Below, in pieces: positions 3,959 to 39,886 of a DNA stretch of 57,710 nucleotides. This DNA is from a virus: the IMG/VR virus record IMGVR_UViG_3300045988_104231, one strand, 5' to 3'. The notes under the pieces are model-generated. The model was not told where the DNA came from and ran no database searches. It saw nothing but the letters and a program-made list of their open reading frames with translations. A program made the translations under genes and the position numbers. Each line of letters opens with the position of its first letter. The stretch's first letter is position 1.

Positions 3959-3959
3959 A

Positions 3960-5027: not shown

Positions 5028-5048
5028 ACATTTTAAAAACTAAAGATT

Positions 5049-5342
5049 ATGACATTACAAGAAGTAAAGACAGAGAGCGTAACAAAAATCATCAATGGTA
5101 CTGGAGAAACTCTTGATATCAAGGAGAGCCGTGTTACGATAACGAGCGAGAACAAGGTATCCGAGGCGAACGGACAGGTTTATAACAAGCAAGCCGGTTA
5201 TATCGGAAGCTATAACTACACCAGATTTGGTGGATTGAGCGTCAATGCAAATGATAGCACATTTACCGCTCTGCAAGTAAGCGGTGAGGTATTGAAATAC
5301 ATCGACGCTATCGAGAACCAAGTATCGGTAGTGATGAATTAA
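5049..5342 (+). CDS. Hypothetical protein
   Basis: 97-aa ORF, co-directional and tightly spaced. Confidence 0.5.
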   Translation: MTLQEVKTESVTKIINGTGETLDIKESRVTITSENKVSEANGQVYNKQAGYIGSYNYTRFGGLSVNANDSTFTALQVSGEVLKYIDAIENQVSVVMN

Positions 5343-5408
5343 TTATTTTTCCGGTCGTGTCATTCAGACGCGACCGGGCTACAAGTTGAATTATAACATA
5401 AAAAACAT

Positions 5409-5855
5409 ATGAAAAAGAAAGAAGCCATTGAATTGTACAAGGTGTTGAACGGATGCAAGCTGACCGGTATGGTGTCATCCTCGAAGATGACGGTGTTGAA
5501 CAACCTTAGAAAATTGCGCCCCATATCGGAGACATACGAGGCTGATATAAAAGAAGCCATTGAGAAGTTTAAGCCGGAGGGCTTTGACGACCTGATGAAA
5601 AAGGTTCGTGGTCATAATGATTCCGTGAACACGGGCGGTAAGCCTGTGATGTCTGGGGATGAGCTGAGGGATGCGTCCTCGATCATCGAAGAGTACAACA
5701 AGGAGGTAAATGATTTTGTCGAGAAGATACTGGATGAGGATGCCGGGATTGAGTTAAATAAGCTTGACAATCCAGACTTGGAGAAGCTTTTGGACGCTAA
5801 TGATATAGAGGCTAGCCAACTGGAGATAATCTATTCACGCTTGTCATGTAATTAA
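5409..5855 (+). CDS. Hypothetical acidic protein
   Basis: 148-aa ORF with no recognisable motif. Confidence 0.5.
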   Translation: MKKKEAIELYKVLNGCKLTGMVSSSKMTVLNNLRKLRPISETYEADIKEAIEKFKPEGFDDLMKKVRGHNDSVNTGGKPVMSGDELRDASSIIEEYNKEVNDFVEKILDEDAGIELNKLDNPDLEKLLDANDIEASQLEIIYSRLSCN

Positions 5856-6017
5856 TTACCCATGCAATATAGCCACAATCGTAGCTACCATATTGGGATC
5901 TTCGATGGTTAGGCGGTTAAGCCAAGAAGCATATTTTATTATTAAATGACTGTAATTATGAAAACTGTTAATTTCAAGAGGTTTTAGTTTTTACCTAATT
6001 GATAAATATTTTATATC

Positions 6018-20226: not shown

Positions 20227-21054
20227 TCAAAACAATGTTTTCTCTAAATCATAATTAATCCAAATCACCTCTTGTACCTCACTGCTCCGGATGTTATTCT
20301 TCTTGACCGGGAACTTTATCATGTTCCAATCCCCGTACAACTCCCGCATTAACGGACAGTCATAACTACTTATCATTGCCTTGCCTTTGATCGAATGCAA
20401 ACGATCGGAAAGCTCACGATGCTTATCGTCAGAGAACTCGTACTTGTAATCATTCGAAGAGGCCCGGCACTCAAGCGGATAGGGTGGGTCGGCGTAGAAG
20501 AAAGCGTTTGGGAAATCAAGCCGATCAATGCAATCCTTATAGTCCAGATTGGTGATCTGGAAATTGCCCCTGATCACCTCTGCGACCTCATGCAGTTTCT
20601 CTATCGCGTTGTTCCATCGGGAGACAGTCTCTCCGCCCTTGGCGTTGACATGTTGCTTGGCACAATGCCAACCCTTGTTCTTCTGTTGCGCTCCCAACCC
20701 GAAGAATGATTGCCGGATACGGACGTAAAACCTCCTTGCACGCTCTATCTTATCCCCGGAAGGTTCCCATGAGTTATTATACTCCAGTTCGGAGCATGGG
20801 GTTAACAGCAATAACCTTGTCAACTCCGGCTCATGATCCCTTAATACCTCGAAGAAGTTGGTTATATCCCCGTTTATCTCGTTGGCCGTCTTGATAACCC
20901 TTCCCGGATAATTGATGGACACGGCCATGCTTCCGGCGAACAGATCGACCAGATGGGTGAAATCTCTTGGAAAGTTCGTGTACAGATACTCCAACCAAGT
21001 GAATTTCCCTCCGAAGTAATTGAAGGCTATAAGTTTATTTCTGTTTCCGCTCAT
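20227..21054 (-). CDS. dam: Dam-like (D12 class) N6-adenine DNA methyltransferase
   Basis: FNYFGGK...LVDLFAGSMAV (AdoMet site) and FFYADPPYP (catalytic DPPY). Confidence 0.85.
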   Translation of the reverse strand: MSGNRNKLIAFNYFGGKFTWLEYLYTNFPRDFTHLVDLFAGSMAVSINYPGRVIKTANEINGDITNFFEVLRDHEPELTRLLLLTPCSELEYNNSWEPSGDKIERARRFYVRIRQSFFGLGAQQKNKGWHCAKQHVNAKGGETVSRWNNAIEKLHEVAEVIRGNFQITNLDYKDCIDRLDFPNAFFYADPPYPLECRASSNDYKYEFSDDKHRELSDRLHSIKGKAMISSYDCPLMRELYGDWNMIKFPVKKNNIRSSEVQEVIWINYDLEKTLF

Positions 21055-21986: not shown

Positions 21987-22670
21987 TTATAATTGAAACA
22001 TTGATGTCTGTATTATCTTTTTACCACTAGGTAATATGATTTCACCTAGGCATTCTTCCTTAAACCTTTTATCTTGGGCATTGAAATATTCCTTGTCTAT
22101 CTCGGTTGCGTAAAAATCAAAACCCATTTTATAGGCGGCTATACGGCTGCTTCCGCTCCCCAAATGAGAGTCATAAATTTTGTCACCGGGATTGGCGTAA
22201 TTTTTCAAAATCCATAAATACAATGAGAGCGGTTTTTGGTGTGGATGTATCTTTCCCTTTCCGGTCTCATGTCCCATCCTATATCCATCCCACGGAATGG
22301 AGACAAGATTGCATGGGATTTTTTTTGGCACGTAGGCTATCTCACATTTCGAGTATTTAAACACATCGTTATTGTTGCTCATCTTATCCCAAACAATCAA
22401 ATAGTTGGTATTTCCTAGATATTGGGTGTAATAATTATATCCCCATATGATCTGATCCTTGCTAATTCTTTTTAACTCATCGAAGTATGACGCATCCTTG
22501 ATGGGGCTATTCTTATAGGATGTATCCTTGAATTTATACCCATTATTCCTTTTCTTCCAGTCCTCTCCTATACCATACGGTGGACCTACGATAGCTAGAT
22601 CAAAGAATTTATCAGGAATGTTTCTCATATAGTCCATACAATCCTCGTTGTAAACATTGCTTATAGCCAT
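21987..22670 (-). CDS. Beta-class N6A/N4C DNA methyltransferase
   Basis: N-terminal IVGPPYG (catalytic motif IV) and C-terminal YDSHLGSGSSRIAA (motif I). Permuted order as in N4/N6 MTases. Confidence 0.8.
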   Translation of the reverse strand: MAISNVYNEDCMDYMRNIPDKFFDLAIVGPPYGIGEDWKKRNNGYKFKDTSYKNSPIKDASYFDELKRISKDQIIWGYNYYTQYLGNTNYLIVWDKMSNNNDVFKYSKCEIAYVPKKIPCNLVSIPWDGYRMGHETGKGKIHPHQKPLSLYLWILKNYANPGDKIYDSHLGSGSSRIAAYKMGFDFYATEIDKEYFNAQDKRFKEECLGEIILPSGKKIIQTSMFQL

Positions 22671-25384: not shown

Positions 25385-25879
25385 TTAAAAAGGAATATCT
25401 TTGTTCTTTTCTCTAAAGTCTTTTCGTTTTCTTTCGTTTTCTTTATATAGTTTTTCTTTAGCTTTAATCCTTCTTTGGGTTAAGGCTAATATTTCGTTTT
25501 CTCTATGGAAATAGCTTCCGTCATTGCCCGTCACTTTTAATATTGCATCATCGTGCTCAAGATATATCGATATATTTATATCCCATAGTAAAGAGGATAT
25601 TTCAAATAAGGTTATTCCCATCTTCTGTAAGGATCTTATTGTTTCAAGTATATCGTTAAGCGCATTCTTATGTTCATCTTCATGACATTTTTCGCAAAGT
25701 GAAATCAATTGCCAGTCATCGTATTCCCATATTTTTTTATTTTGTTCGTATGCTAGATGATGTACATGAAGCGTATTATCTGTATCTCCGCATATTTGGC
25801 AAGCGAAATTATCTCTGCTCAATATTTCTAACCTTCTTCTTTGCCATCTAGGGTCTTTTATTTGTTCCTTATAATCCAT
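25385..25879 (-). CDS. HNH-motif endonuclease-like protein
   Basis: RWQRRRLEILSRDNFACQICG...LHVHHL...LCEKCHEDEH. Confidence 0.55.
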   Translation of the reverse strand: MDYKEQIKDPRWQRRRLEILSRDNFACQICGDTDNTLHVHHLAYEQNKKIWEYDDWQLISLCEKCHEDEHKNALNDILETIRSLQKMGITLFEISSLLWDINISIYLEHDDAILKVTGNDGSYFHRENEILALTQRRIKAKEKLYKENERKRKDFREKNKDIPF

Positions 25880-26210: not shown

Positions 26211-26708
26211 TCACCAAGTCTTTATTTTTATTGGTAGATCGGCGTACCACCAAGCCAGAATCGTAGCGTCACGTTGGTCTTGGTTCGTTCTCTTAGGCAA
26301 GGGACCGACTATGTAGGAGAGTTCCTCATGGGTTATCTTGCCCTCGTCCCCTTTCCAATGCTTGGTCAAAGGCTTTACCTCCTCGCAGGGAATCCCTATG
26401 TGCTCGCACATCTGGAGAAGCAATATCCCGGTTTGCTGGTTACGACCTACATACTTGGCTATCCTCTCGCCGGATTTACCCCTAGCCTTATGGTAGTTGC
26501 TTTTTTCGTTAAGCCATCCGGCCTCGACAATGACCACTATGTCTACCCCCTTGTATCTCTCTCTTGCCTCCTTTATGAAATCGACCAACACAGGGAAGGG
26601 GAGGCTCTTTAGAATTAGCTGTCTCGTTGAAGGAGACAGTACGCATATGCCGGATTTATCTATGTCCGGGTCAACGGCTATCACTAAATCATGTTTTTTC
26701 TTTCCCAC
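26211..26708 (-). CDS. RuvC-like Holliday-junction resolvase (GTG start)
   Basis: LVIAVDPDIDKSGICVL catalytic Asp motif and EAGW. AAGGAGGA lies upstream of the GTG start. Confidence 0.55.
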   Translation of the reverse strand: MGKKKHDLVIAVDPDIDKSGICVLSPSTRQLILKSLPFPVLVDFIKEARERYKGVDIVVIVEAGWLNEKSNYHKARGKSGERIAKYVGRNQQTGILLLQMCEHIGIPCEEVKPLTKHWKGDEGKITHEELSYIVGPLPKRTNQDQRDATILAWWYADLPIKIKTW

Positions 26709-27004: not shown

Positions 27005-27463
27005 TTAATTATCTGTTTTGCCCTTTGGTACGCTATCAGCGTCAAACGGGAAGATGTCCATAATAAGGGTCTCGCTTACCATTGCCAAGGTATAATCCGC
27101 CAAGGTCCCTTTCATATTCTCCTCGAAGCATGAGATCGCTTCCTTTAGGCCGCTCGCCTGTACTATGAATCTGGCCGCTGTTTTCTTCTCTATGCCGCTC
27201 TTCTCATCAAGCGTGATAAAATAGATCTTAATCTCATAAAATCTATCACCGTTATCGTTAAAGAATAGTTCCGCTATCTTTTTACGTGTTATGTCGGCGA
27301 TAGTGAACTCTCCGGTAATGTACGGCCTTAATTCCTCTATCGTGCGTGCTTCAGCCTCCGTATAGGAGAGGGCATCCACTAAATAGGGTTCGACCACTCG
27401 TTTTTGCATGCCGTTCTCCAGCATCTTCTCATATGCGACCTTGCTAATAAACCAGTTTCTCAT
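27005..27463 (-). CDS. DUF4494-family protein
   Basis: MRNWFISKVAYEKMLENGMQKRVVEPYLVDALSYTEAEAR...FITLDEKSGIEKKT matches the Bacteroidales DUF4494 pattern as I recall it. Start taken at the internal ATG 27463. Confidence 0.6.
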   Translation of the reverse strand: MRNWFISKVAYEKMLENGMQKRVVEPYLVDALSYTEAEARTIEELRPYITGEFTIADITRKKIAELFFNDNGDRFYEIKIYFITLDEKSGIEKKTAARFIVQASGLKEAISCFEENMKGTLADYTLAMVSETLIMDIFPFDADSVPKGKTDN

Positions 27464-27642
27464 ATATACTTTAATAATTAATGTTATACTTCTTTCTTTC
27501 GTATTGTGGGACATACCCTTTGCAAGGAGTATTCCCGTCAAGTAAGGCCGATTCCGGCCTCACAGTTTCCCCTTCTTTTTTAGACGGGTCTGTCCAATGC
27601 CTCTGCCGTTGATGGCAAAGGCAATGTCTTTTAGAACATGCC

Positions 27643-27831
27643 TCATTGAGGCATAATATCAGTTCTTTCATCTTGGATTATTTTCTCGAGTTTCTTTAGA
27701 TCCTTTTTGGCCAATCTTACGGTATCGGCTATCCTTGGTCTTCCCTTGGAATCCACGTGTTCTAGGATAACCGATAGATGGCGGGACAGTGTTTTAATGA
27801 AAGACTCGGATAGCTGGTACCTTTTAGCCAT
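27643..27831 (-). CDS. Hypothetical small protein
   Basis: 62-aa ORF. Confidence 0.45.
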   Translation of the reverse strand: MAKRYQLSESFIKTLSRHLSVILEHVDSKGRPRIADTVRLAKKDLKKLEKIIQDERTDIMPQ

Positions 27832-27836
27832 GGCCG

Positions 27837-29930
27837 TTATTTTTTATAAAAACCTTGGAACCTCACGATACCTAGATACTCGGGAGATTTCATTAGTCCG
27901 TCCCCCATGCCGCCCAACGTCTCGGCTCCCGGCTCGTCAAGGACAACCTTGGAGTCAATCTCCTTAGGTACACGGAAGCATATCTGTACGGGGAAATTCA
28001 CCTTAGCGTCTCCCGTGATCACGTTAACCGACGCTCTTTGCGTAGCCGCCATGATCCGGAACCCAAGCGATCGTCCCTTTTGTAGCAACATCTTCAGATT
28101 CTCCTCCAATGACTTTTCACGACCGACCGTGCGTAGTTCCATTTTAGGCTCGAGGAATCCGAAGGCGTTCTTTCGCTGGCCAACCTCGACCATTTCCTTT
28201 ATGTCAAGTTCTGTTCCCGAACGGGAGGACGCTACCGCGTCGGCGAACTCATCGAACACCACCAGCGTTTTCCATGATGCCCTCGATTTAGCCCTTTCTT
28301 GCATATCCTGTACGAGCTCTTTCATCTTGGCCTCTATTTCTTCTATATCATTATAGACCTTTATGTATTTCTCGGAGGAATAATTACAGAACTCGTATTT
28401 CGGATCGAAAATTACGATGTCCCGGATACCGGCTAAGCGGGCGTATTCTATCGTGGATATGATACACACGGATTTACCGCTACCGGTAGCTCCACAAATC
28501 AAGGCGTGAGGCGTGGAGTTGTTATCGAGATCCCACACCACGAGCCTACCGAAGTTATCCGTTCCTATGGGAATCCTCATGCCGTCGATATACTTCTTGT
28601 CCCAATACAAGGACTTGGTTCTTTTCTTCGGTGATTCTATGGAGAGGTAGGATTTTTCCTCATACACCATAAGCTCGTTACCCATCCTTATGGATGGCAC
28701 GTCCAGCGCGTTCGCTATGTCTAGCTTGTATTTCATCACTGTCGTGATCTTTGTCCCAGCGGATACCTCTAGCAGATACGTGTCTGACGAGTACCCGTTA
28801 ATCTCCTTGGCCACGTTCACGATCACCCCGAATGTCCGTAGGATATGCTCTATTTTCTCGCTGTTTGTCATATTACTATTGGATAAATCATATTGAATGA
28901 ATGAGGAAGCGTTCCTCTTGAACTCGGATATTACCTTGGGGTTTACCGATCCAAGGGAAGCGTCCCGTATTTTTTTCTGTCTCTTCGATATCAATTCCTT
29001 CTTTGACTCGGGCACGTTGAAATCATCGACCTCCGCTATCAGCGTCTTGGCCCAGAAATTATAAAGCTCGGCCCTGTCCACGAAGTTGTCGCTATCGTTG
29101 ATCATGTACACGTAATCCGGATCGGACACGGCCTCTATCATCCTTTTTAGCGGCTCGTACAATATGGCCTCGTAAAGTTTCCTCGTGTCGTTATCGAGAT
29201 TGATCACGAATTTCTTCAACTGGGAGGAGCCGTCCTTGTTTTTCGAGATCTTGTTCTCCACGAACCATACCTCGTCAACATTCTCCCCGAAGCGGGACTC
29301 ATAGCACTTAACGTAGGTCATCGCCTGTTTCCCGCAGGTAAACGTTAGTTCCTCGTCATCGGTGAACTTGGCCCTTGACTTATGGTCTATGATGACCGTC
29401 CGACCGCTCTCCGTCCTTATCGCCAAGTCTAGCCTAGCGTGGCAGGGCAGGGGGATGTCCACCCCGTTTACCGTTACCCATTCCTCGCATCTTAATTCCA
29501 CGGCGATTATCTCCTTGATACCGGAAAGATATATATCCTTTTCCCCGTAGAAGTTATTGATAAGCCTCGTGGCGTTCTTGGTGGCCTCGATCTTGCATTC
29601 CTCTACGGTAGGTGTCGTTTTCTGTATTTTCCAATCATTCGGGTGTACCTCCTCTATGTATGAGAACGCTACCCTCTCCATTTCCGTGATCGGTATTATC
29701 TGCCCCTTGCGCTGTAGCTCCATGAAGAAATACTCCAAGGCCGAATGATAGGCGTTACCCGCCACCGTGCTGGAGGATGATCTGGATCTTTCCCGGTAAA
29801 TCTCCCGTTTCTCGAACTCCTTCTCGTTCCGGGAGAAAGAGGCCACCTTGCTGTAACTCCAAGAGTCGATAAGGTAGTTTGATAAATGCTCCTCCAGCTC
29901 GGCGTTGGTATAGGATGAGTACTTGTTCAT
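27837..29930 (-). CDS. Fusion protein: N-terminal PD-(D/E)XK RecB/Cas4-like nuclease + C-terminal FtsK/SpoIIIE-type ATPase
   Basis: N-terminal half: ARLDLAI...VIIDHKS...GKQAMTY (D / D-x-K / QxxxY motifs). C-terminal half: GATGSGKS Walker A, LVVFDEFAD Walker B, and ATQRASVNVITGDAKVNFPVQICFRV (FtsK signature). Confidence 0.75.
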   Translation of the reverse strand: MNKYSSYTNAELEEHLSNYLIDSWSYSKVASFSRNEKEFEKREIYRERSRSSSSTVAGNAYHSALEYFFMELQRKGQIIPITEMERVAFSYIEEVHPNDWKIQKTTPTVEECKIEATKNATRLINNFYGEKDIYLSGIKEIIAVELRCEEWVTVNGVDIPLPCHARLDLAIRTESGRTVIIDHKSRAKFTDDEELTFTCGKQAMTYVKCYESRFGENVDEVWFVENKISKNKDGSSQLKKFVINLDNDTRKLYEAILYEPLKRMIEAVSDPDYVYMINDSDNFVDRAELYNFWAKTLIAEVDDFNVPESKKELISKRQKKIRDASLGSVNPKVISEFKRNASSFIQYDLSNSNMTNSEKIEHILRTFGVIVNVAKEINGYSSDTYLLEVSAGTKITTVMKYKLDIANALDVPSIRMGNELMVYEEKSYLSIESPKKRTKSLYWDKKYIDGMRIPIGTDNFGRLVVWDLDNNSTPHALICGATGSGKSVCIISTIEYARLAGIRDIVIFDPKYEFCNYSSEKYIKVYNDIEEIEAKMKELVQDMQERAKSRASWKTLVVFDEFADAVASSRSGTELDIKEMVEVGQRKNAFGFLEPKMELRTVGREKSLEENLKMLLQKGRSLGFRIMAATQRASVNVITGDAKVNFPVQICFRVPKEIDSKVVLDEPGAETLGGMGDGLMKSPEYLGIVRFQGFYKK

Positions 29931-30763
29931 GGCATGTCCTCTTTGTTTTTGCCCTTAGACTGTCTCATCGCCTCCTTTTTTTGATCGACATCTTTCTTTG
30001 TCTCACGAATTGGAAGGATTAGATCGTTTACCGTGGTATCCCCGTCCTTTAACGCTTGTATGATCCCGATCAGCATGGCGATCTCGTCGGGGCCTATCTG
30101 ATTGCTGGTCTGTTTGCCGCATAGCTTAATGACCTCCTCTTCCGTTATGGCGTATTCGTTCTTGAACTTGTTGATGATATTAGTTCTCGTTTTTAATATC
30201 TTGTCAGCGTCGGATAGATCCCCCGTGATGAATTTTTGGGCGGCTTGATAGACCCTGTCCACTATGGCCTTGGGGATAACGGCGAATACGGAATTGCGAT
30301 AAGCTATGGAGTTGGCGGCGTTTCCCGTTACGGTAATCATGTCGTCTGAGTAACGTTTCCCCTTGCTATCCACTATGCTCCTGCGAACCTCGAACGCGGA
30401 CGCTACGTTTGTCTCCAGATCCCAGCATGTACCCCTGCTGATGATCTGCTTGTCCGTTATCTGGATAACCTTGGCCTCAGTCCTGATATTACCCCAATTG
30501 GATACGATTATCTTGGCGAGGTGTACGGATGGCCCAGTAATAGGTTTCCCTCCCCTTGGCAAGGCATAACTGCATGACCTTGCCGTGTCTTGATTCATCG
30601 TGGCCATTACCACGGAATTATCAATACTCCTTCTGATATCCCTAGGATATCTTTTCGCGGTCGCAACTTGTGAGTCCACGTTTGCTCTCTCAACCGCATC
30701 TACCTGTAAAATTTGTACTTCATGGCTTTCTGCTGGAAGTACCTCGTAACTGCTTGATTCCAT
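29927..30763 (-). CDS. Possible single-strand annealing / recombination protein (RecT/Red-beta-like)
   Basis: Sits directly upstream of, and overlaps, the nuclease gene. C-terminal NAANSIAYRNSVFAVIPK resembles the RecT AKKTAIRRLFKYLP region. The similarity is weak. Confidence 0.3.
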   Translation of the reverse strand: MESSSYEVLPAESHEVQILQVDAVERANVDSQVATAKRYPRDIRRSIDNSVVMATMNQDTARSCSYALPRGGKPITGPSVHLAKIIVSNWGNIRTEAKVIQITDKQIISRGTCWDLETNVASAFEVRRSIVDSKGKRYSDDMITVTGNAANSIAYRNSVFAVIPKAIVDRVYQAAQKFITGDLSDADKILKTRTNIINKFKNEYAITEEEVIKLCGKQTSNQIGPDEIAMLIGIIQALKDGDTTVNDLILPIRETKKDVDQKKEAMRQSKGKNKEDMP

Positions 30764-30923
30764 GATTATTTATTTTGAATGATTTCCTTTACCAATATAA
30801 AGTGCTGGTTTCCCAATCTCGTTGATACCGATCTTCCTCATATTCCTCGTTGTCCTCCTCCCCGTCGTACTCCGGTTCGCCGTCGGGGTCTTTGATGTAG
30901 ATGTCTCTCATATATCTTGATTA

Positions 30924-30991
30924 GTAGGCCTCCGGGAGTCGAACCCGGCCATCCCCATGTTAGGGGCGCTCTACCGATAAGCTAAGGCCTT
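30924..30991 (-). tRNA. tRNA-like gene with non-canonical (shortened) anticodon arm; possible pseudogene
   Basis: Good D-arm (GCTT/ATCGGTA/GAGC), T-arm (CCGGG/TTCGACT/CCCGG) and 6-7 bp acceptor. The anticodon arm is only CCCC/TAACAT/GGGG, and the total length is 68 nt. Confidence 0.4.
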
Positions 30992-30995
30992 GAAT

Positions 30996-31607
30996 TTATT
31001 CGATCTCGATAATCTCGAATTTTCCTTTCTTTATATATATCTTATGATTGTAGTAATCTTTGACTATTCCACGATCGGAAACTGTATTTATGTTTCCAGC
31101 GCAATCCTCGACATATGAGTTATTGCAAGCCTCGACCGTGGCAGAGTTGTAAGCCTCGACCGTGGCAGAGTCGTAAGCCTTGACCGTGGCAGAGTCGTAA
31201 GCCTTGACCGTGGCAGAGTTGTAAGCCTCGACCGTGGCAGAGTCGTAAGCCTCGACCGTGGCAGAGTCGTAAGCCTTGACCGTGGCATAGCCGCAAGCCT
31301 TGACCGTGGCATAGCCGCAAGCCTTGACCGTGGCATAGCCGCAAGCAAATGATTCAGTATCAGAGGCGTGTTCTTTTCTTGTGTAAATGCCAGCTTCGGT
31401 TAATTCCTCCTCAGTAAAGTTTTCTTCTAGGTAATTTGCGTCAATCATCTTGGACGTACTCAAGACCCAATACCAATTATCGGTTATAGCTTTCAGCAAG
31501 TCTTGTTTGCTTTTTGCGTTTAACCCCATACTGTATCCATCTTGGCAAGCGTGATGTTTTTTAGCCCGTTCAAGCAGATCTTTTTTTAATTCTTCGAATG
31601 TCTTCAT
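30996..31607 (-). CDS. Octapeptide-repeat protein (A-[YC]-[GDN]-[YS]-A-T-V-[KE] x about 10)
   Basis: 203-aa ORF. The repeat is encoded by a 24-bp tandem array. Confidence 0.65.
   Translation of the reverse strand: MKTFEELKKDLLERAKKHHACQDGYSMGLNAKSKQDLLKAITDNWYWVLSTSKMIDANYLEENFTEEELTEAGIYTRKEHASDTESFACGYATVKACGYATVKACGYATVKAYDSATVEAYDSATVEAYNSATVKAYDSATVKAYDSATVEAYNSATVEACNNSYVEDCAGNINTVSDRGIVKDYYNHKIYIKKGKFEIIEIE
31125..31346. repeat. 24-bp tandem repeat, about 9 copies, in-frame within the CDS
   Basis: The GCCT[CT]GACCGTGGCA[GT]AG[TC][TC]G[TC]AA unit is read repeatedly on the plus strand. Confidence 0.9.
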
Positions 31608-31752: not shown

Positions 31753-32022
31753 TCATTTTTCTGACTCATAAGTCATTATAACTATTTGGTGTACCACAAT
31801 AAAGATTGATATGATCGCTAGGATCAAGAGGTGAATATTGAGAGGTTTTTCGTACCACTCAAATATTGACACTATTGACATTAGCCCTAGTACGGTAGCT
31901 GCAATCATCCTTAGCGAGAAGATGATAATGCTCTTTATGGCCCGGAATATCTTCCAGAACCATGCTTGGTTTCTCTTTATCATATATATTGTTGTTTTTA
32001 AAAATCGGAAGAAAGGCCTCAT
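31753..32022 (-). CDS. Small membrane protein
   Basis: Start taken at ATG 32022 (MRPFFRF...), because the longer track ORF runs through the tRNA gene. Two hydrophobic helices. Confidence 0.5.
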   Translation of the reverse strand: MRPFFRFLKTTIYMIKRNQAWFWKIFRAIKSIIIFSLRMIAATVLGLMSIVSIFEWYEKPLNIHLLILAIISIFIVVHQIVIMTYESEK

Positions 32023-32097
32023 ATCCTCACGGACGGAGACCTGCGTTGCAATTGTGACTGATTTTCTGATTGAATAAGCACCCCTAGGGGTGAAACG

Positions 32098-32172
32098 TGC
32101 TCCCTGCCGGGCTTGAACCGGCGACCTCTCGCTTATGAGGCGAATGCTCTCGACCAACTGAGCTAAGGGAGC
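32098..32172 (-). tRNA. tRNA, anticodon CAT (Met, or Ile2 if lysidine-modified)
   Basis: Perfect 75-nt cloverleaf: GCTCCCT TA GCTC AGTTGGTCGA GAGC A TTCGC CTCATAA GCGAG AGGTC GCCGG TTCAAGC CCGGC AGGGAGC A. Confidence 0.9.
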
Positions 32173-32512
32173 GTTTGCCGGGGAATCCCACCCCGGCACA
32201 GTTTAAGTAAAAACTAATATTCCCTAATTGCCTGCCTCACGGCGGTATTGTAAGGTCTTGGTAGCTTTATTACACATAAACAGCAAATAGTGTGAATTGT
32301 GATAGTGGTAGCCGGGGAACTCGCACCCCTTGTAACCCTAGATAATAATATAACTAGATAACCGGATTTCCACCGGACGTACTCCTTTTTAGTACGATAT
32401 GAAGACGGATTAAAATTGTTTCTGCGGTTCGCTACCTGCCCTAGCCATTTCCTAGGGTGGAATTCTTCTTTCTTTCATGTGATTAACTTGGTTATTAATA
32501 GGTCTATCGGTT

Positions 32513-32866: not shown

Positions 32867-33212
32867 GTTGTTATTATTTTAAATGTTCGCTCCCCCACAA
32901 CCTCCAACGGTTTCGAACCCGAATCATAGACGGGTAGGGGAGTGTATCTTATGCGTTAGATAGACAGTTTGACACCGATACGGAAATATCCGTACTTCAC
33001 TGACACGACGTAATATCTAACCTTTGTATATACATTATTAAATATGTAGACTCCAACACCAGAACCGATCAAACTACATCGGGAGCGGGGATCATCATCC
33101 CTTCCGGTATCTTCGCCTGTCATAACCTTACCCTCCATACCTATATCTCTTACGTATATCCTCTTATGGGGATAAGGATTTATTCACTAAGTCAAAGAAC
33201 TCTTTTTTTTAG

Positions 33213-33284
33213 TAGCCCCACCGGTAATCGAAACCGGATATCTCCTTTAGGGGAGGAGCGCTCTATCCGTTGAGCTATGGGGCT
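33213..33284 (-). tRNA. tRNA-Arg (anticodon CCT), with C at position 33
   Basis: 72-nt cloverleaf: AGCCCCA TA GCTC AACGGATA GAGC G CTCCT CCCCTAA AGGAG ATAT CCGGT TTCGATT ACCGG TGGGGCT A. Confidence 0.8.
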
Positions 33285-36296: not shown

Positions 36297-38330
36297 TTGG
36301 GAGCTGAGACGGATAACAGGAGGATAATAAGCTACAAGAGGTTCAATCCGAACTTTCACCATTTGAAGCCGGCGTTGGGGAATGACGATATAAGGTTCAT
36401 CTTCATGTACGGGGGATCGTCTTCCGCCAAGTCTTTCTCAGCGGCCCAAGCCTTCCTGTTGGAATGTATATCCAAGGGCTATAACACGATTGTCTTTAGG
36501 AAGACCGGAGCAACCATAGCGGACAGTATCTACAAGACGTTCCAAGAGGCGGCTAAATCATTGCATATAGATACTTTTTTCAAATTCCAAGAAAACCTTA
36601 TAAGGTGTTTCAACGGTTCCTATATCCGGTTCAAAGGGCTGGACGATCCGGAGAAGATCAAGGGTCTCGAATCTTATCAGTACGTGTTTTGCGAGGAGAT
36701 ATCCGAGTTCGATGAATCCGACTTGAAACAGATAAGGAAGCGTCTCCGTGGTCGCAAGGGACAGAAGATCGTAGCTCTATTTAACCCGATATCGGAGGAT
36801 CATTGGATCAAGAAAAAGATATTTGATACCGAGACATTGACCGAGGTGGACAATCATCTGTACGGGAAGCTCAAGGATAGCGTAACGGGTAAGATACTGC
36901 CAAAGGAATATTCCGAGGTAGGGAGGAAATGGGTCAATTCCGAGCGGACCATATACAACCCAAGAAAAAAGACTTACGAGACGCACCGCCCGGATATGGT
37001 TATCATCAAGTCCACCTATCTTAATAATTTCTGGGTTGTAGGGTCTCCTGATGGCACGTATGGCTTTTATGACGCTCAGACGATAGCGGATTTCGAGAGG
37101 GACAAGGAAAGGGATTACGCTTATTATCTGATATATGCCTTGGGCGAGTGGGGGACGATAAGGACGGGTGGAGAGTTCTTCCACGCCTTCGACCCCGCCA
37201 AGCATAAGGGCAAGTGCCCATATGTCAAGGCTCCTTTGCATATATCGATAGATAACAACGTCCTACCTTATATCTCCATCTCTTTTTGGCAGGTTGAGAC
37301 CGGGGATATAACGAGGATAAGGCAAATTCACGAGGAAACCCCGTCCGATCCGTTCAACACGGTCACCAAGGCCGCCGAGATCGCCGTTGAATATCTGGAG
37401 GGGATAGGGCATGATGATATGGTCTATCTTTATGGGGATGTATCGACCAAGGCCGGGAATACGATAGATGACGATAAGAGGTCTTTTTTCGATAAGTTCA
37501 AGGAGGGTATAGACAAGAGATTCCGTAGCGAGGACAGGCTGCCCAGATCGAACCCTTCCGTATCCATGACCGGGGAGTTTATCAACGCGATATATTCTGG
37601 AGATATAAAAGACGTGTCCATCATGATCGACGAGAGTTGCGAGACATCGATAAACGATTATATCACCGTAAAGAAGGATGTCAACGGGGCGATGCTCAAG
37701 CAGAGGGTAAAGGACAAGATTACGGGTCAGTCCTACGAGAAGGCCGGTCACCTTAGCGATGCCAAGCGTTATTTTGTCACGGAGATATTAAAGGATAGAT
37801 ATACGGCTTTCTCGTTGAGAAGAAAAAGAAACACTATAAAAGAAAGCGATATGAGATATTATGATCAAAGCATGGTGGATTTGTCCGGATTGACCGGATT
37901 GGTTGAGATTCATCCGGATAATGGAGGAAAGTTCGTTTACGCTAAGTGCATGGTCAAGGGAGGATTTGTTTACATTACGGACGCCTCAGTCCTTGATGAT
38001 CGTATAAAAGAGGAGGATATGGCCTCAAGGCTGGGGAAAGGCGATCTTTTGGTGCATGTTGAATGTGATAAGTTCAATGCTACATACGTTCGAAATCTAA
38101 GGGATTATCTCAATGACGTTCGAGGCAGGAGCTTGCCAGCGAATGTTGCGGGAAGAATAGAGGCACATTCTGAATTTATTCGGGATCATTTTCTTTTTCG
38201 TAAGGATTACGATGAAGATGACGGATACTTGAGGTTTGTTGAAAGCGTCTTGGATTATAGGGAAAAATCGGATATTGAGGCTATAAGCGTATTGTCAGCA
38301 TTGGCTGAGCGCATAAAAAACAAGACCTAG
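36297..38330 (+). CDS. terL: Terminase large subunit (PBSX/Terminase_3-like) with a long C-terminal extension
   Basis: Walker A-like YGGSSSAKS, Walker B VFCEEISE, NPISEDHW motif. TTG start in the track. Confidence 0.85.
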   Translation: MGAETDNRRIISYKRFNPNFHHLKPALGNDDIRFIFMYGGSSSAKSFSAAQAFLLECISKGYNTIVFRKTGATIADSIYKTFQEAAKSLHIDTFFKFQENLIRCFNGSYIRFKGLDDPEKIKGLESYQYVFCEEISEFDESDLKQIRKRLRGRKGQKIVALFNPISEDHWIKKKIFDTETLTEVDNHLYGKLKDSVTGKILPKEYSEVGRKWVNSERTIYNPRKKTYETHRPDMVIIKSTYLNNFWVVGSPDGTYGFYDAQTIADFERDKERDYAYYLIYALGEWGTIRTGGEFFHAFDPAKHKGKCPYVKAPLHISIDNNVLPYISISFWQVETGDITRIRQIHEETPSDPFNTVTKAAEIAVEYLEGIGHDDMVYLYGDVSTKAGNTIDDDKRSFFDKFKEGIDKRFRSEDRLPRSNPSVSMTGEFINAIYSGDIKDVSIMIDESCETSINDYITVKKDVNGAMLKQRVKDKITGQSYEKAGHLSDAKRYFVTEILKDRYTAFSLRRKRNTIKESDMRYYDQSMVDLSGLTGLVEIHPDNGGKFVYAKCMVKGGFVYITDASVLDDRIKEEDMASRLGKGDLLVHVECDKFNATYVRNLRDYLNDVRGRSLPANVAGRIEAHSEFIRDHFLFRKDYDEDDGYLRFVESVLDYREKSDIEAISVLSALAERIKNKT

Positions 38331-38460: not shown

Positions 38461-38470
38461 TTTGTACGCT

Positions 38471-39886
38471 ATGAGTTGGTATGACAAATTATTGCCTTCG
38501 ATATTGAGGTTTGGCACTCGATCTAGTGTCAAGTCAATGTCTATGCTGGGGCATGTCGGCCAAGTGCATGTGGACAATGGGGGGGATATATGGTATATGT
38601 CCGGATTATCCTCATTGCTTGAACGTAATGATTTTAAGATTGATATGTCATCTATTCCCGGAAAGGCGTTAGCTCTGAGAGTCTGTACGCCATTCGCTAC
38701 CGTAACGGACAGGGCCGGCTCCATGTTCTCCAATGGCAAGTTTTATGTCGTGGACAAGAATGACAACGAGCATGGCATGTATAAGACAAGGGATGGAAAG
38801 ACCGACTCCTTATATCCCCGATTTGAGAAGATGAGAAGATTCCTGTCTCGTCCAAATCCATTGCAAAGTGGAAGGCAGTTTAACAAACAGGTCGAGATGA
38901 CCATGAAAGCCTTTGGCTTTTGTCCGATATTCACGTTAAGGCCTATACCGGGAGAGTTGCCCATATCCATGTGGATCATTCCCCCGGAGTTGTTCCACGT
39001 GATCCTTAGCGGGAAATTATGGTCTCAAAGTGATTTGGATGGGATAATATCAGAGGCGTACATAGAATGGAATGGAGAGAGGATCAACTTGGAGAAGGAT
39101 GATTATTTCATCGTGTCCGACTCGACCGCTATCATTGGTGGGTATCAGTCAGAATTAAGGTTTGAGACTACGGTAGATAGCTTGTCAAAGCCGGTAAATA
39201 ATTGGATCAACCAGATGTCTGCCCGTAACACGTTGATAATCGATGGAGGCCCTAAGGGTATTATATGCGATGATAGTGGCGGGGACGTATATGGTAATAG
39301 TTCCTTGACCTCAAAGGAGCAGAGGGAACTAAACGATAATTTCAAGAGAAAGTATGGATTGGTAGGAAAGTTGTATTCCATATTGGTCACCACGGCCAAG
39401 CTGAAGTGGGTACCGATCACGCATAGCTCCAAGGATCTGATGCTTCATGAGGAGGATGAGTCGTGTCGTAATATAATATCGAACGCTATCGGCCTTAATC
39501 CTAACGTCTTGATGCCGGATAGCAAGTTCGCCAACTTGCAGGAGGCCAAGACCGCCGCTTATCAAGACTTGATCATACCCGACTCCGAGAACTACACGGA
39601 GATCCTTACCGAGAATATCGCCTATGATGGAATGAGGATAAGGCTGGATTACTCGCATATATCCTGCTTGCAGGAGGACAAGCTAAGCTCCGCTCAAGCG
39701 TTCTCTACGTCTTCCACATCGGCGAAGGATCTGTACGGCATGGGATTGATAACGATGCAGGAGGCGAGAAGAGAGATCGCTAATTACATGGACATAAACC
39801 CCGATGATCCAGAGGGGGATTTTAAAGACAACAAGGAGGAAATCAGTAATGAAAGTCAAGAAGAGAACAATAGGGAAGCAATATAA
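38471..39886 (+). CDS. Portal protein
   Basis: About 470 aa. Position in the order terL - portal - protease - capsid. ATG at 38471 preferred over the TTG at 38462. Confidence 0.75.
   Translation: MSWYDKLLPSILRFGTRSSVKSMSMLGHVGQVHVDNGGDIWYMSGLSSLLERNDFKIDMSSIPGKALALRVCTPFATVTDRAGSMFSNGKFYVVDKNDNEHGMYKTRDGKTDSLYPRFEKMRRFLSRPNPLQSGRQFNKQVEMTMKAFGFCPIFTLRPIPGELPISMWIIPPELFHVILSGKLWSQSDLDGIISEAYIEWNGERINLEKDDYFIVSDSTAIIGGYQSELRFETTVDSLSKPVNNWINQMSARNTLIIDGGPKGIICDDSGGDVYGNSSLTSKEQRELNDNFKRKYGLVGKLYSILVTTAKLKWVPITHSSKDLMLHEEDESCRNIISNAIGLNPNVLMPDSKFANLQEAKTAAYQDLIIPDSENYTEILTENIAYDGMRIRLDYSHISCLQEDKLSSAQAFSTSSTSAKDLYGMGLITMQEARREIANYMDINPDDPEGDFKDNKEEISNESQEENNREAI

What the first reader, a model, noticed from the sequence alone, without database searches (positions are those of the whole stretch)
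27837..30763. RecB/Cas4-type nuclease fused to an FtsK/SpoIIIE ATPase, paired with an SSAP-like gene
The 697-aa protein combines an N-terminal PD-(D/E)XK nuclease (ARLDLAI, VIIDHKS, GKQAMTY = D / DxK / QxxxY) with a C-terminal FtsK-family motor (GATGSGKS, LVVFDEFAD, ATQRASVNVITG...ICFRV). Phage recombination modules normally pair a stand-alone exonuclease with an annealing protein. Here the exonuclease is welded to a dsDNA-translocase module. It overlaps a 278-aa upstream ORF whose C-terminus faintly resembles RecT/Red-beta. A nuclease driven by an FtsK-type pump could act as a minimal end-processing machine, a host-chromosome degrader, or a device clearing or translocating replicated concatemers.
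Basis: partly seen in the sequence, partly recalled or inferred. Interest (0 to 1): 0.7.

Follow-up and report, generated by a model that had tools for sequence, protein, structure and literature searches.

The report
Motor-driven exonuclease in phage recombination module
A gut Bacteroidales phage has replaced the usual stand-alone recombination exonuclease with one fused to an FtsK-type DNA-pumping ATPase, always encoded next to a DNA-annealing protein gene, which points to an uncharacterised ATP-powered version of the classic two-protein phage recombination system.

Summary
ORF 27837-29930 (-) encodes 697 aa with an N-terminal PD-(D/E)XK nuclease (Pfam PDDEXK_1, above threshold) and C-terminal FtsK alpha and motor domains (PDB FtsK E=2e-26). 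It has no membrane anchor, gamma domain or Cas4-type cysteines.

The fusion is not an assembly artefact. More than 120 clusters at 90% identity, and about 50 listed representatives at 50% identity, share the architecture down to 25% identity. D168, D182, K184, Q202, the Walker A lysine and the Walker B glutamate are invariant.

In every related locus with intact upstream DNA, the gene just upstream is an annealing-protein gene:
- the window's 278-aa family in 67 loci;
- RecT-like proteins in 9 close and 5 distant loci.

Phages whose fusion-gene DNA is about 98% identical to the window's carry a cleanly swapped RecT-like cassette.

In 11 of 11 GenBank phage loci examined, the 278-aa family sits beside or within two genes of a stand-alone PD-(D/E)XK exonuclease (RecE-like in 10, YqaJ in one). 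It is not a RecT member by sequence. Its fold matches ERF, RecT and Rad52 models only weakly.

Best reading: an exonuclease/annealase recombinase whose exonuclease is driven by a ring translocase, analogous to HerA-NurA. The activity is inferred, not shown. I found no published description. Verdict: new variant of a known kind.

The parts
29927..30763 (-). 278-aa candidate single-strand annealing protein. It belongs to PHROG 3657 (the 'RecE-linked protein' family) and has no Pfam model.
   Evidence: ORF. PHROG 3657 at 4e-52. No Pfam hit for any of 84 members. Homologues sit beside or within two genes of PD-(D/E)XK exonucleases (DUF3799 in 10, YqaJ in 1) in 11 of 11 GenBank phage loci. The slot is exchanged with RecT-like genes. 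AF2 model has pLDDT 75.5. BFVD fold hits to ERF, RecT, Rad52 and Bet fall at E 1e-5 to 1e-2.
29927..29930 (-). ATGA stop/start overlap joining the annealase-candidate gene to the fusion gene. Translational coupling is inferred.
   Evidence: Sequence read. The same head-to-tail arrangement occurs in 67 of 67 related loci that carry the 278-aa family.
27837..29930 (-). 697-aa PD-(D/E)XK nuclease / FtsK alpha-beta ATPase fusion protein.
29226..29873 (-). N-terminal PD-(D/E)XK nuclease domain (about aa 20-235). Catalytic residues are E145, D168, D182-x-K184, Q202...Y206 and E225-x-K227.
   Evidence: Pfam PDDEXK_1 at 31.5 bits, above the cut-off of 22. 15 of 17 diverse members hit PDDEXK_1. D168, D182, K184, Q202 and K227 are invariant in 51 sequences at 25-64% identity. 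hhalign against the DUF3799 RecE-like profile gives probability 95%, E 2.6e-8.
28881..29225 (-). Conserved middle region (about aa 236-350) between the nuclease core and FtsK alpha. No family assignment.
   Evidence: Strongly conserved in A2 (LYEALLYEPLKRMIEAVSDPDYVY...). N278 is at least 90% conserved in A3. No Pfam hit.
28629..28880 (-). FtsK alpha domain (aa 351-434).
   Evidence: Pfam FtsK_alpha at 29.9 bits, above the cut-off of 22.9. Aligns to FtsK structures 2ius and 2iuu.
27837..28628 (-). FtsK beta (RecA-like motor) domain. Contains Walker A GATGSGKS (28470-28493), Walker B FDEFAD (28239-28256) and TQRAS with R632. The protein ends right after this domain, so there is no gamma domain.
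   Evidence: Pfam FtsK_SpoIIIE at 36.1 bits, above the cut-off of 24. PDB FtsK at E 2e-26. G480, G483, G485, K486, E561, R620 and Q631 are invariant, and R632 is present in 48 of 51.
27643..27831 (-). 62-aa ORF immediately downstream. Conserved, function unknown.
   Evidence: A homologue is present in 58 of 80 related loci and as a 64-aa gene in the Bacteroides prophage L191.
27005..27541 (-). DUF4494 gene (probable true start at 27463). Frequently linked to the fusion gene, function unknown.
   Evidence: Pfam DUF4494 at 1.3e-52. Found downstream in 46 of 72 related loci. No PDB relative.
26211..26708 (-). RuvC-like Holliday junction resolvase. It belongs to the same recombination/replication gene block.
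   Evidence: PHROG 1770 at 2.2e-18.
30832..30911 (-). Conserved non-coding stretch upstream of the annealase gene. It is the left boundary of the exchangeable annealase cassette; the right boundary is at 29936.
   Evidence: blastn of L134 and L136 against the window: 97.5% identity at 30911-30832, no homology over 30831-29937, then 98.4% from 29936.

Best explanation
The two genes form a phage two-component recombinase, an exonuclease plus a single-strand annealing protein, in which the exonuclease is fused to a ring-forming dsDNA translocase.

Proposed mechanism:
1. The FtsK alpha-beta module assembles as a hexamer on a double-stranded DNA end.
2. It hydrolyses ATP and pumps the duplex towards the N-terminal PD-(D/E)XK domains tethered to the same ring.
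3. Those domains degrade the 5'-ended strand processively.
4. The 3' single strand that is exposed is bound by the 278-aa protein, or by RecT in related phages. That protein anneals it to a complementary strand for recombination-dependent replication, repair and genome circularisation.

In classical systems a passive toroid (lambda Exo trimer, RecE tetramer) gives processivity. Here an ATP-driven ring would do that job, as HerA does for NurA.

Shown: the domain architecture, conservation of both active sites, invariable linkage to annealase genes, annealase cassette swapping, and absence of any other detected exonuclease or annealase in the window.

Inferred: nuclease polarity, hexamer formation, ATP-coupled resection, and physical contact with the annealase.
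For: 1. Both domains pass curated thresholds.
2. Across 51 full-length relatives at 25-64% identity, the nuclease residues D168, D182, K184 and Q202 and the ATPase residues K486, E561 and Q631 are invariant. E145, D560 and R632 are at least 90% conserved. Both activities are therefore under selection together.
3. The 278-aa family gene lies directly upstream on the same strand in 67 of 80 close loci. Four of the remainder are cut by contig ends. All other 9 have a RecT-like gene in that slot.
4. Five of 5 distant fusion loci (about 26-37% identity) also have RecT-like genes just upstream.
5. Phages whose fusion-gene DNA is about 98% identical to the window's carry a different annealase. Homology breaks exactly at the cassette borders, 30831 and 29937.
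6. Elsewhere the 278-aa family lies beside or within two genes of a stand-alone PD-(D/E)XK exonuclease (DUF3799 or YqaJ) in 11 of 11 loci. One GenBank annotator recorded '20/20 phages'.
7. The nuclease core is homologous to those RecE-like partners (hhalign 95%).
8. Blautia phage Montmirail encodes the same three functions as separate, overlapping genes: 278-family, then DUF3799 exonuclease, then a HerA-type ATPase.
9. HMMs for DUF3799-type exonucleases and RecT-like proteins detected no other such gene in the window. The window has its own terminase and portal, so the ATPase is not the packaging motor.
10. Precedent: NurA-HerA performs translocation-coupled 5' resection (PMC9960219). A ring is the key architectural feature of processive recombination exonucleases (PMC11611040).
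Against: - No biochemical or genetic data exist for any member.
- No structure of the fusion was predicted; both prediction jobs went to the 278-aa protein. Domain geometry is therefore unknown.
- Six nuclease domains per ring have no precedent in lambda Exo, RecE or NurA.
- Classical exonuclease/annealase systems need no ATP, so the benefit of a motor is unexplained.
- The annealase identity of the 278-aa protein is indirect. It has no Pfam, PDB or RecT profile similarity. The BFVD fold hits have low TM-scores of 0.2-0.3.
- PHROG files FtsK-like phage proteins under 'host takeover'.
- PADLOC shows related ATPase modules in defence systems.
Confidence: 0.6

Rival explanations
1. The FtsK module is not a processive pump here. 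It serves as an oligomerisation scaffold, loader or regulator that assembles the nuclease domains into a ring or gates their activity. ATP is used for loading or turnover rather than for translocation-coupled resection. The protein is still the exonuclease partner of the annealase.
For: It has the same contextual evidence as the best explanation. Classical partners work without ATP and need only a ring (PMC11611040). A variable insertion directly after Walker B (aa about 566-605) distinguishes this family from cellular FtsK and could alter motor behaviour.
Against: Walker A, Walker B and the TQR arginine are conserved as strictly as in true translocases. The alpha and beta domains align end to end with FtsK motor structures.
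Confidence: 0.2
2. The fusion is a host-takeover or conflict weapon. It would be an ATP-driven nuclease that degrades the host chromosome or competing mobile DNA, or a superinfection-exclusion or defence effector. Its position next to the annealase gene would be incidental.
For: PHROG 1358 is categorised as 'moron, auxiliary metabolic gene and host takeover'. The ATPase half resembles components of defence systems: mad8 at 2e-21, plus SspH and HerA.
Against: - The PADLOC hits cover only the generic ATPase half, and no defence model covers the nuclease half or the whole protein.
- Linkage to an annealase gene is universal across 25-100% identity and survives annealase replacement.
- The gene sits with replication and recombination genes: RuvC-like resolvase, replication initiator and DnaB.
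- The HMM and Pfam scans run found no other recombination exonuclease in the phage.
Confidence: 0.1
3. The protein acts like cellular FtsK, in resolving or segregating replicated phage genomes (concatemer or dimer resolution), or in DNA packaging.
For: Solved FtsK structures are the best PDB matches by sequence. There is a weak hit to a PHROG labelled terminase large subunit (phrog_2666, 1.4e-8).
Against: - There is no gamma domain and no membrane anchor. The protein ends at the beta domain, and the maximum 19-residue hydropathy is 1.35.
- The NCBIfam FtsK equivalog scores 90.8 bits against a cut-off of 1566.
- The window encodes a canonical terminase large subunit and portal.
- This reading does not explain the conserved nuclease active site or the annealase linkage.
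Confidence: 0.05
4. The long ORF is an artefact: two genes joined by a sequencing or assembly error.
For: None found.
Against: Identical architecture appears in more than 120 clusters at 90% identity from independent sources, including finished Bacteroides and Parabacteroides genomes. It also appears in about 50 representatives at 50% identity and in about 60 IMG/VR contigs at 99-100% identity.
Confidence: 0.01

Closest known systems
RecE/RecT and lambda Exo/Red-beta two-component recombinases (exonuclease plus annealase; EATR systems)
   Same: - Adjacent, co-oriented exonuclease and annealase genes in a phage early region.
- A PD-(D/E)XK exonuclease whose catalytic core aligns with RecE-like DUF3799.
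- RecT-like genes pair with the same fusion in sister phages.
   Different: - The exonuclease carries a C-terminal FtsK alpha-beta ATPase of about 350 aa. Known systems are ATP-independent passive toroids (PMC11611040).
- The window's annealase candidate belongs to a family with no Pfam model and no detectable RecT or Red-beta sequence similarity.
HerA-NurA DNA-end resection complex (archaea, Deinococcus)
   Same: A hexameric FtsK/HerA-superfamily dsDNA translocase coupled to a nuclease, generating 3' tails for recombination (PMC9960219). A phage with separate exonuclease and HerA-type ATPase genes next to a 278-family gene shows the same pairing.
   Different: - Here it is one polypeptide, not two proteins.
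- The ATPase is of the FtsK clade (alpha plus beta) and matches no HerA family beyond the generic central ATPase domain (DUF87).
- The nuclease is PD-(D/E)XK, not NurA; the NurA fold is recalled from memory.
- The stoichiometry would be 6:6 rather than 6:2.
- It is partnered with an annealase, not with Mre11-Rad50/RadA (also from memory).
Cellular FtsK/SpoIIIE DNA translocases
   Same: Alpha and beta motor domains with Walker A, Walker B and the TQR(P/A)S arginine. Best solved-structure matches are 2ius and 2iuu at E about 1e-26 to 1e-24.
   Different: - No N-terminal membrane domain, no linker and no KOPS/XerD-binding gamma domain.
- Far below the FtsK equivalog cut-off.
- A variable insertion after Walker B.
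- The N-terminus is replaced by a nuclease.
RecBCD / AddAB / AdnAB helicase-nuclease resection machines
   Same: ATP-driven motor plus PD-(D/E)XK (PDDEXK_1-type) nuclease processing dsDNA ends.
   Different: Those use SF1 helicase motors that unwind DNA and are regulated by Chi sites. Here the motor is a ring dsDNA pump, no helicase domain is present, and the product would be handed to an annealase rather than to RecA. This comparison rests on established knowledge and was not tested here.
Stand-alone phage FtsK/SpoIIIE-like proteins (PHROG 1358; Bacillus, Mycobacterium and other phages)
   Same: Homologous ATPase module (1e-43; 231 GenBank phage records match the C-terminal half).
   Different: None of the 231 records covers 80% or more of the query. 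The nuclease domain alone has no tblastn match among 50,697 GenBank phage records. The stand-alone genes sampled (L175-L185) carried no domain matching the fusion's nuclease HMM; their neighbours were listed but not searched against Pfam.

Membership tests
PD-(D/E)XK nuclease superfamily (Pfam PDDEXK_1, PF12705) | Profile match above the curated threshold | tested here: met
   31.5 bits against a cut-off of 22, residues 23-226. 15 of 17 diverse family members match, best E 1.2e-15.
PD-(D/E)XK nuclease superfamily (Pfam PDDEXK_1, PF12705) | Catalytic D ... (D/E)xK motif with accessory E and QxxxY | tested here: met
   D168, D182, K184 and Q202 are invariant. E145 is present in 48 of 51 and Y206 in 33 of 51 relatives at 25-64% identity.
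Cas4 | Four conserved cysteines binding an Fe-S cluster | tested here: not met
   No alignment column reaches 40% Cys in 51 relatives.
RecE-like exonuclease (DUF3799, PF12684) | Profile match to DUF3799 | tested here: inconclusive
   No direct Pfam DUF3799 hit. However, hhalign of the N-terminal profile against 9 DUF3799 partner exonucleases gives probability 95%, E 2.6e-8 over the catalytic core only, 71 columns.
RecE-like / lambda Exo-like recombination exonuclease | Processive 5'-to-3' digestion from dsDNA ends; toroidal oligomer | not testable with these tools
   Requires biochemistry or structure determination.
FtsK/SpoIIIE family ATPase | FtsK alpha and FtsK_SpoIIIE motor profiles above threshold; Walker A, Walker B and arginine finger | tested here: met
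   29.9 bits against 22.9 and 36.1 bits against 24. PDB FtsK at E 2e-26. K486 and E561 are invariant, and R632 is present in 48 of 51.
Bona fide FtsK (chromosome segregation translocase) | N-terminal membrane domain, gamma (KOPS/XerD) domain, and equivalog-level score | tested here: not met
   No hydrophobic segment (maximum 19-residue hydropathy 1.35). The protein ends at the beta domain; the alignment stops at chain residue 403 of 512 in 2ius. NCBIfam FtsK scores 90.8 bits against a cut-off of 1566.
HerA-NurA | A HerA-family ATPase (HAS-barrel type) with a separate NurA nuclease | tested here: not met
   Only weak, generic hits to the HerA central ATPase domain (DUF87 7.9e-6; PADLOC HerA models 7e-7 or weaker). 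No match to any other HerA family, and no NurA family, appears in the Pfam results. The nuclease is PD-(D/E)XK. The resemblance is functional only.
RecT / Red-beta family (for the 278-aa protein) | Sequence-profile membership (PF03837 or a related profile) | tested here: not met
   No Pfam hit for the window protein or for any of 84 relatives. hhalign against 7 RecT-like slot-mates gives probability 0.1%. No PDB sequence relative of any annealase; the one hit below 0.001 is an unrelated RNA-editing protein.
Rad52-superfamily annealase fold (for the 278-aa protein) | Structural similarity to ERF, RecT, Rad52 or Red-beta | tested here: inconclusive
   AF2 model has pLDDT 75.5. Against PDB, no hit with E below 0.04 and no annealase. 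Against BFVD, once same-family hits are set aside, the named hits are almost all ERF (1.2e-5), RecT (4.6e-4), Rad52/59/22 (3e-3) or Bet (7e-3), with probabilities up to 1.0 but TM-scores of 0.2-0.3.
Exonuclease/annealase two-component recombinase (EATR) module | Adjacent, co-oriented exonuclease and annealase genes that co-vary as a module | tested here: met
   67 of 67 278-family loci and 14 of 14 RecT-like loci have the annealase gene directly upstream (one has a 96-aa ORF between). The 278-family lies beside or within two genes of DUF3799 or YqaJ exonucleases in 11 of 11 other phages.
Exonuclease/annealase two-component recombinase (EATR) module | ssDNA annealing activity and exonuclease-annealase protein contact | not testable with these tools
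   Requires biochemistry or complex prediction. No multimer prediction was available.

The most novel reading that the evidence does not exclude
This is a previously unrecognised class of DNA-end resection machine. It would be a single-polypeptide, ATP-powered ring exonuclease (PD-(D/E)XK nuclease plus FtsK pump). It would have arisen in phages as a one-gene analogue of HerA-NurA. It would work with interchangeable annealases, including a large annealase family (PHROG 3657) that has no Pfam model. Together these would form an ATP-dependent recombineering system native to Bacteroidota.
Probability: 0.45. Interest if true: 0.75.

Novelty: new variant of a known kind. Interest (0 to 1): 0.62.

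Why it matters
Phage exonuclease/annealase pairs (Red, RecET) are the basis of recombineering. They are textbook examples of ATP-independent recombination.

A widespread lineage of gut Bacteroidales phages, with distant relatives in other metagenomes, has a DNA-pumping ATPase fused to the exonuclease. This would show that end resection in these systems can be motor-driven. It would link phage recombinases mechanistically to HerA-NurA. It also raises the question of what the motor buys, for example speed, removal of bound proteins, or resistance to host end-binding factors.

Practically, the gene pair is a candidate recombineering tool for Bacteroides and Parabacteroides. In these hosts I know of no established phage-derived recombineering tool, and one literature search returned none.

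The work also flags the 278-aa 'RecE-linked' family as a likely unclassified annealase family. It has thousands of database clusters and no Pfam model. Finally, it shows that database labels such as 'DNA translocase FtsK' or 'terminase large subunit' on these genes are misleading.

Tried and rejected
1. The first AF2 run of the 278-aa protein used 23 near-identical sequences and failed (pLDDT 43.8). It was rescued by searching with distant GenBank homologues to deepen the alignment.
2. Foldseek of that model against PDB gave nothing significant. Sequence and profile searches of the 278-aa family against PDB gave no annealase or other plausible relative.
3. hhalign of the 278-family against RecT-like slot-mates found no similarity. 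A Pfam scan of 84 members found no family. RecT/Red-beta membership is therefore rejected.
4. The N-terminal nuclease profile against PDB sequences gave no hit.
5. The single genome-contig scan, run with the full-length alignment, was wasted. The tool chose a generic FtsK motif and returned 80 ordinary FtsK loci with no nuclease domain. The taxonomic range of the distant fusions therefore remains unknown.
6. The N-terminal alignment was too variable to seed a collection scan. Viral-contig scans with P0259, P0299 and P0283 found nothing.
7. 'Bacteriophage sp.' and 'Acinetobacter phage MD-2021a' records matching the ATPase half turned out to be cellular FtsK.
8. A cluster look-up of 10 distant representatives gave no organism names.
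9. Literature searches for this fusion found no description. Iyer et al. 2004, on the FtsK-HerA superfamily, is not held in the library, so an earlier mention cannot be excluded.
10. Packaging ATPase, true FtsK, Cas4 and sequencing artefact were considered and rejected on the evidence listed under rival explanations and membership tests.


Full report
**1. The observation**

The minus strand carries a 697-aa ORF at 27837-29930 and a 278-aa ORF at 29927-30763. They overlap by the four bases ATGA.

Pfam places three domains in the 697-aa protein, each above its curated cut-off:
- PDDEXK_1 at residues 23-226;
- FtsK_alpha at residues 351-434;
- FtsK_SpoIIIE from residue 451.

PHROGs give an FtsK/SpoIIIE-like family (1e-43, residues 339-695) and two 'exonuclease' families for the N-terminus. 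Solved FtsK motor structures match residues 355-694 at E about 1e-26 to 1e-24.

The 278-aa protein has no Pfam or NCBIfam family. It does match PHROG 3657, of unknown function, at 4e-52.

**2. The fusion is real and old**

The 120 best clusters in the 5.8-billion-protein collection are 64-99% identical, 677-708 aa long, and cover 100% of the query. They come from Parabacteroides, Bacteroides, Phocaeicola, Coprobacter, Rikenellaceae and Caudoviricetes assemblies, usually labelled 'DNA translocase FtsK'.

A word-index-free search of representatives clustered at 50% identity found about 50 full-length proteins of 600-720 aa. These match from the N-terminus to residue 695 at 25-64% identity.

In an alignment of 51 of them:
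- invariant: G58, D168, D182, K184, Q202, K227, the Walker A residues G480, G483, G485 and K486, the Walker B glutamate E561, R620 and Q631;
- at least 90% conserved: H62, E145, D560 and R632.

Both active sites have therefore been kept together over deep divergence.

No column is cysteine-rich, so there is no Cas4-type Fe-S cluster. No hydrophobic segment is present. The protein stops at the end of the FtsK beta domain, so the membrane anchor and gamma domain of cellular FtsK are absent. The FtsK equivalog model scores 90.8 bits against a cut-off of 1566.

The nuclease core aligns with RecE-like DUF3799 exonucleases by profile-profile comparison (probability 95%, E 2.6e-8).

**3. The surroundings**

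The window is a tailed-phage genome or prophage. It has its own terminase large subunit (36297-38330) and portal (38462-39886), so the FtsK module is not the packaging ATPase.

Downstream of the pair on the same strand lie:
- a conserved 62-aa ORF;
- a DUF4494 gene;
- a RuvC-like resolvase;
- an HNH protein;
- a replication initiator;
- a DnaB helicase;
- two DNA methyltransferases.

HMMs built for DUF3799 exonucleases and RecT-like proteins detected no other such gene in the window.

About 60 IMG/VR gut contigs of up to 68 kb carry the same fusion at 99-100% identity. A 68%-identical copy lies in a prophage of a finished 6.57-Mb Bacteroides chromosome, next to housekeeping genes.

**4. Linkage to annealase genes (the key result)**

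Among 80 IMG/VR loci carrying close relatives of the fusion:
- 67 have a 278-family gene directly upstream on the same strand;
- 4 are cut by a contig end;
- 9 have a different gene in exactly that slot.

Those nine are all RecT-like:
- canonical RecT (PF03837, 1e-44 to 1e-46) in L150, L165 and L168;
- PHROG 561 'RecT-like ssDNA annealing protein' (about 1e-58 to 1e-60) in L127 and L169, with L128, L134, L136 and L139 encoding the same 257-aa ORF as L127.

L134 and L136 have about 98% DNA identity to the window across the fusion gene, yet a different annealase. DNA identity is 97.5% down to window position 30832. It is absent across 30831-29937, which is the annealase gene. It resumes at 98.4% from 29936, six bases before the fusion's start codon. 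This is a clean cassette exchange.

Five distant fusion loci, about 26-37% identical to the window protein, also have RecT-like genes immediately upstream, or one small ORF away:
- L172: PF03837 at 2.5e-34;
- L173 and L174: 5.5e-16, Bet/RecT PHROGs;
- L193: 1.8e-31;
- L192: PHROG 4171 at 8e-13.

Every locus with readable upstream DNA therefore pairs the fusion with an annealase or annealase candidate.

**5. The 278-aa protein**

tblastn finds 70 GenBank phage records with homologues at 23-41% identity. Hosts span Actinomycetota, Bacillota, Pseudomonadota and Cyanobacteriota. Annotations range from 'hypothetical' to 'RecT-like ssDNA binding protein'.

In all 11 loci fetched, the homologue lies beside or within two genes of a stand-alone PD-(D/E)XK exonuclease. 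Ten are DUF3799 (RecE-like; one of these, in the Acinetobacter phage, only weakly and below threshold) and one is YqaJ. The annotator of Bacillus phage 0105phi7-2 called it 'RecE-linked protein: a homolog found next to a recE homolog in 20/20 phages checked'.

It is nevertheless not a RecT or Red-beta member by sequence:
- no Pfam family matches any of 84 diverse members;
- hhalign against the RecT-like slot-mates gives 0.1% probability;
- PDB sequence and profile searches find no annealase relative.

With a deepened alignment, AlphaFold2 gave a usable model (pLDDT 75.5, pTM 0.65). It has N-terminal helices, a beta-hairpin, a three-stranded sheet and two long helices (aa 18-180), followed by a helical C-terminal domain.

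Foldseek found nothing in the PDB. In the viral predicted-structure library, once members of the same family are set aside, the named matches are almost all annealases. These are ERF (1.2e-5), RecT family (4.6e-4), Rad52/59/22 (3e-3) and Bet (7e-3). Probabilities are high but TM-scores are only 0.2-0.3.

I read this protein as a probable, divergent annealase (about 0.7).

**6. Independent pairing of exonuclease and pump**

In Blautia phage Montmirail, three genes overlap head to tail:
- a 278-family gene;
- a DUF3799 exonuclease;
- a 515-aa HerA-type ATPase (DUF87 2.6e-25; PHROG 7035), mislabelled 'terminase large subunit'.

This is a split counterpart of the fusion that uses the sister clade of the FtsK-HerA superfamily.

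In Enterobacter phage phiT5282EW, an SMC/SbcC-like ATPase sits between recE and the 278-family gene.

**7. Mechanism**

Classical recombination exonucleases are ATP-independent toroids whose ring gives processivity (PMC11611040). recT genes normally sit beside YqaJ or DUF3799 exonucleases (PMC8093625). NurA-HerA shows that a hexameric FtsK/HerA-type dsDNA translocase can drive nuclease digestion of the 5' strand to leave a recombinogenic 3' tail (PMC9960219).

I therefore propose that the FtsK ring of this protein loads on a DNA end and feeds duplex DNA to its own N-terminal nuclease domains. The annealase would then take over the 3' strand.

- Architecture, conservation and linkage are shown.
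- Polarity, hexamer formation, ATP coupling and protein contact are inferred.

A scaffold or loader role for the ATPase is the main rival. Host-takeover or defence, FtsK-like segregation, packaging and artefact are each disfavoured by the evidence above.

**8. Comparison and novelty**

The system works like RecET or Red, and like HerA-NurA. It is a member of neither:
- it lacks an ATP-independent stand-alone exonuclease;
- it matches no HerA family beyond the generic central ATPase domain, and its nuclease is PD-(D/E)XK rather than NurA;
- it fails the defining features of true FtsK and of Cas4.

The nuclease domain has no match among 50,697 GenBank phage records, and none of those records covers the whole protein. 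Full-text searches found no description of this fusion or of its pairing with annealases. One key older paper could not be read.

I classify the finding as a new variant of a known kind, with interest about 0.6. It is a widespread, testable, motor-driven form of a textbook recombination system, and a plausible recombineering tool for Bacteroidota. No activity has yet been demonstrated.

Noticed in passing
window 30996-31607 (repeat array 31127-31346): A 203-aa ORF (PHROG 15773) holds a 24-nt tandem repeat of 9.2 copies, 95% matching, which encodes octapeptide repeats. In phages that are otherwise about 99% identical, the protein is 211 aa (L134, L136) or 403 aa (L139). Many IMG/VR contigs end about 1.3 kb upstream of the fusion gene, which is inside this array. 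It is therefore a copy-number-variable gene that breaks assemblies.
   Followed up: partly
window 30924-30991, 32097-32172, 33212-33284: Three tRNA-like genes lie on the minus strand just upstream of the recombination genes: one with an undetermined anticodon, tRNA-Met(CAT) and tRNA-Arg(CCT). The mechanical ORF 31753-32199 overlaps the tRNA-Met and is probably spurious.
   Followed up: no
window 27005-27541 (probable start 27463): A DUF4494 gene follows the fusion gene here, in a Bacteroides prophage, and in 46 of 72 related loci. It has no PDB relative and no known function. It may be a further component of the module.
   Followed up: partly
window 27643-27831 and 27471-27671: Two small ORFs lie between the fusion and the DUF4494 gene. 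The 62-aa one is conserved in 58 of 80 related loci. The Cys/His-rich 66-aa one (MKELILCLNEACSKRHCLCHQ...) recurs, as a longer 107-aa ORF, in L127. Functions are unknown.
   Followed up: partly
L005 (Blautia phage Montmirail, ON453898) 4522-6069: The gene annotated 'terminase large subunit' in the replication module is a HerA-type ATPase (DUF87 2.6e-25; PHROG 7035 at 1e-116). It overlaps the end of a DUF3799 exonuclease gene, which in turn follows a 278-family gene. The annotation is likely wrong, and the locus is a split analogue of the fusion.
   Followed up: yes
L007 (Enterobacter phage phiT5282EW, PQ352032) 631-4218: The gene order is recE (DUF3799), then a 444-aa SMC/SbcC-like ABC ATPase annotated 'recF', then a 278-family gene. 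This is another ATPase inserted into an exonuclease/annealase module.
   Followed up: partly
L187, L188, L189 (MT835527, MT835572, CAKLQH020000030): GenBank records labelled 'Bacteriophage sp.' or 'Acinetobacter phage MD-2021a' carry membrane-anchored cellular ftsK flanked by what appear to be cellular genes (minCDE and trxB are annotated in L189). These stretches appear to be bacterial rather than phage DNA.
   Followed up: yes
window 28116-28235 (aa about 566-605 of the fusion): A glycine- and lysine-rich insertion directly after Walker B varies in length between relatives. It is about 40 aa in most, and is much shorter and different in sequence in P0072, P0084 and P0095. It is absent from cellular FtsK as I recall the sequence. 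Its role is unknown.
   Followed up: no
window 29927-30763 and relatives (alignments A5, A6): The 'RecE-linked' family (PHROG 3657) has thousands of 90%-identity clusters: 5,853 found with the window protein and 2,305 with distant members. It spans several bacterial phyla, yet it has no Pfam model and only ad hoc names in GenBank.
   Followed up: yes
window 20227-21054, 21987-22670, 25385-25879: The same early block encodes two DNA methyltransferases (D12-class N6-adenine and N6_N4_Mtase) and an HNH endonuclease. These may relate to anti-restriction or packaging.
   Followed up: no
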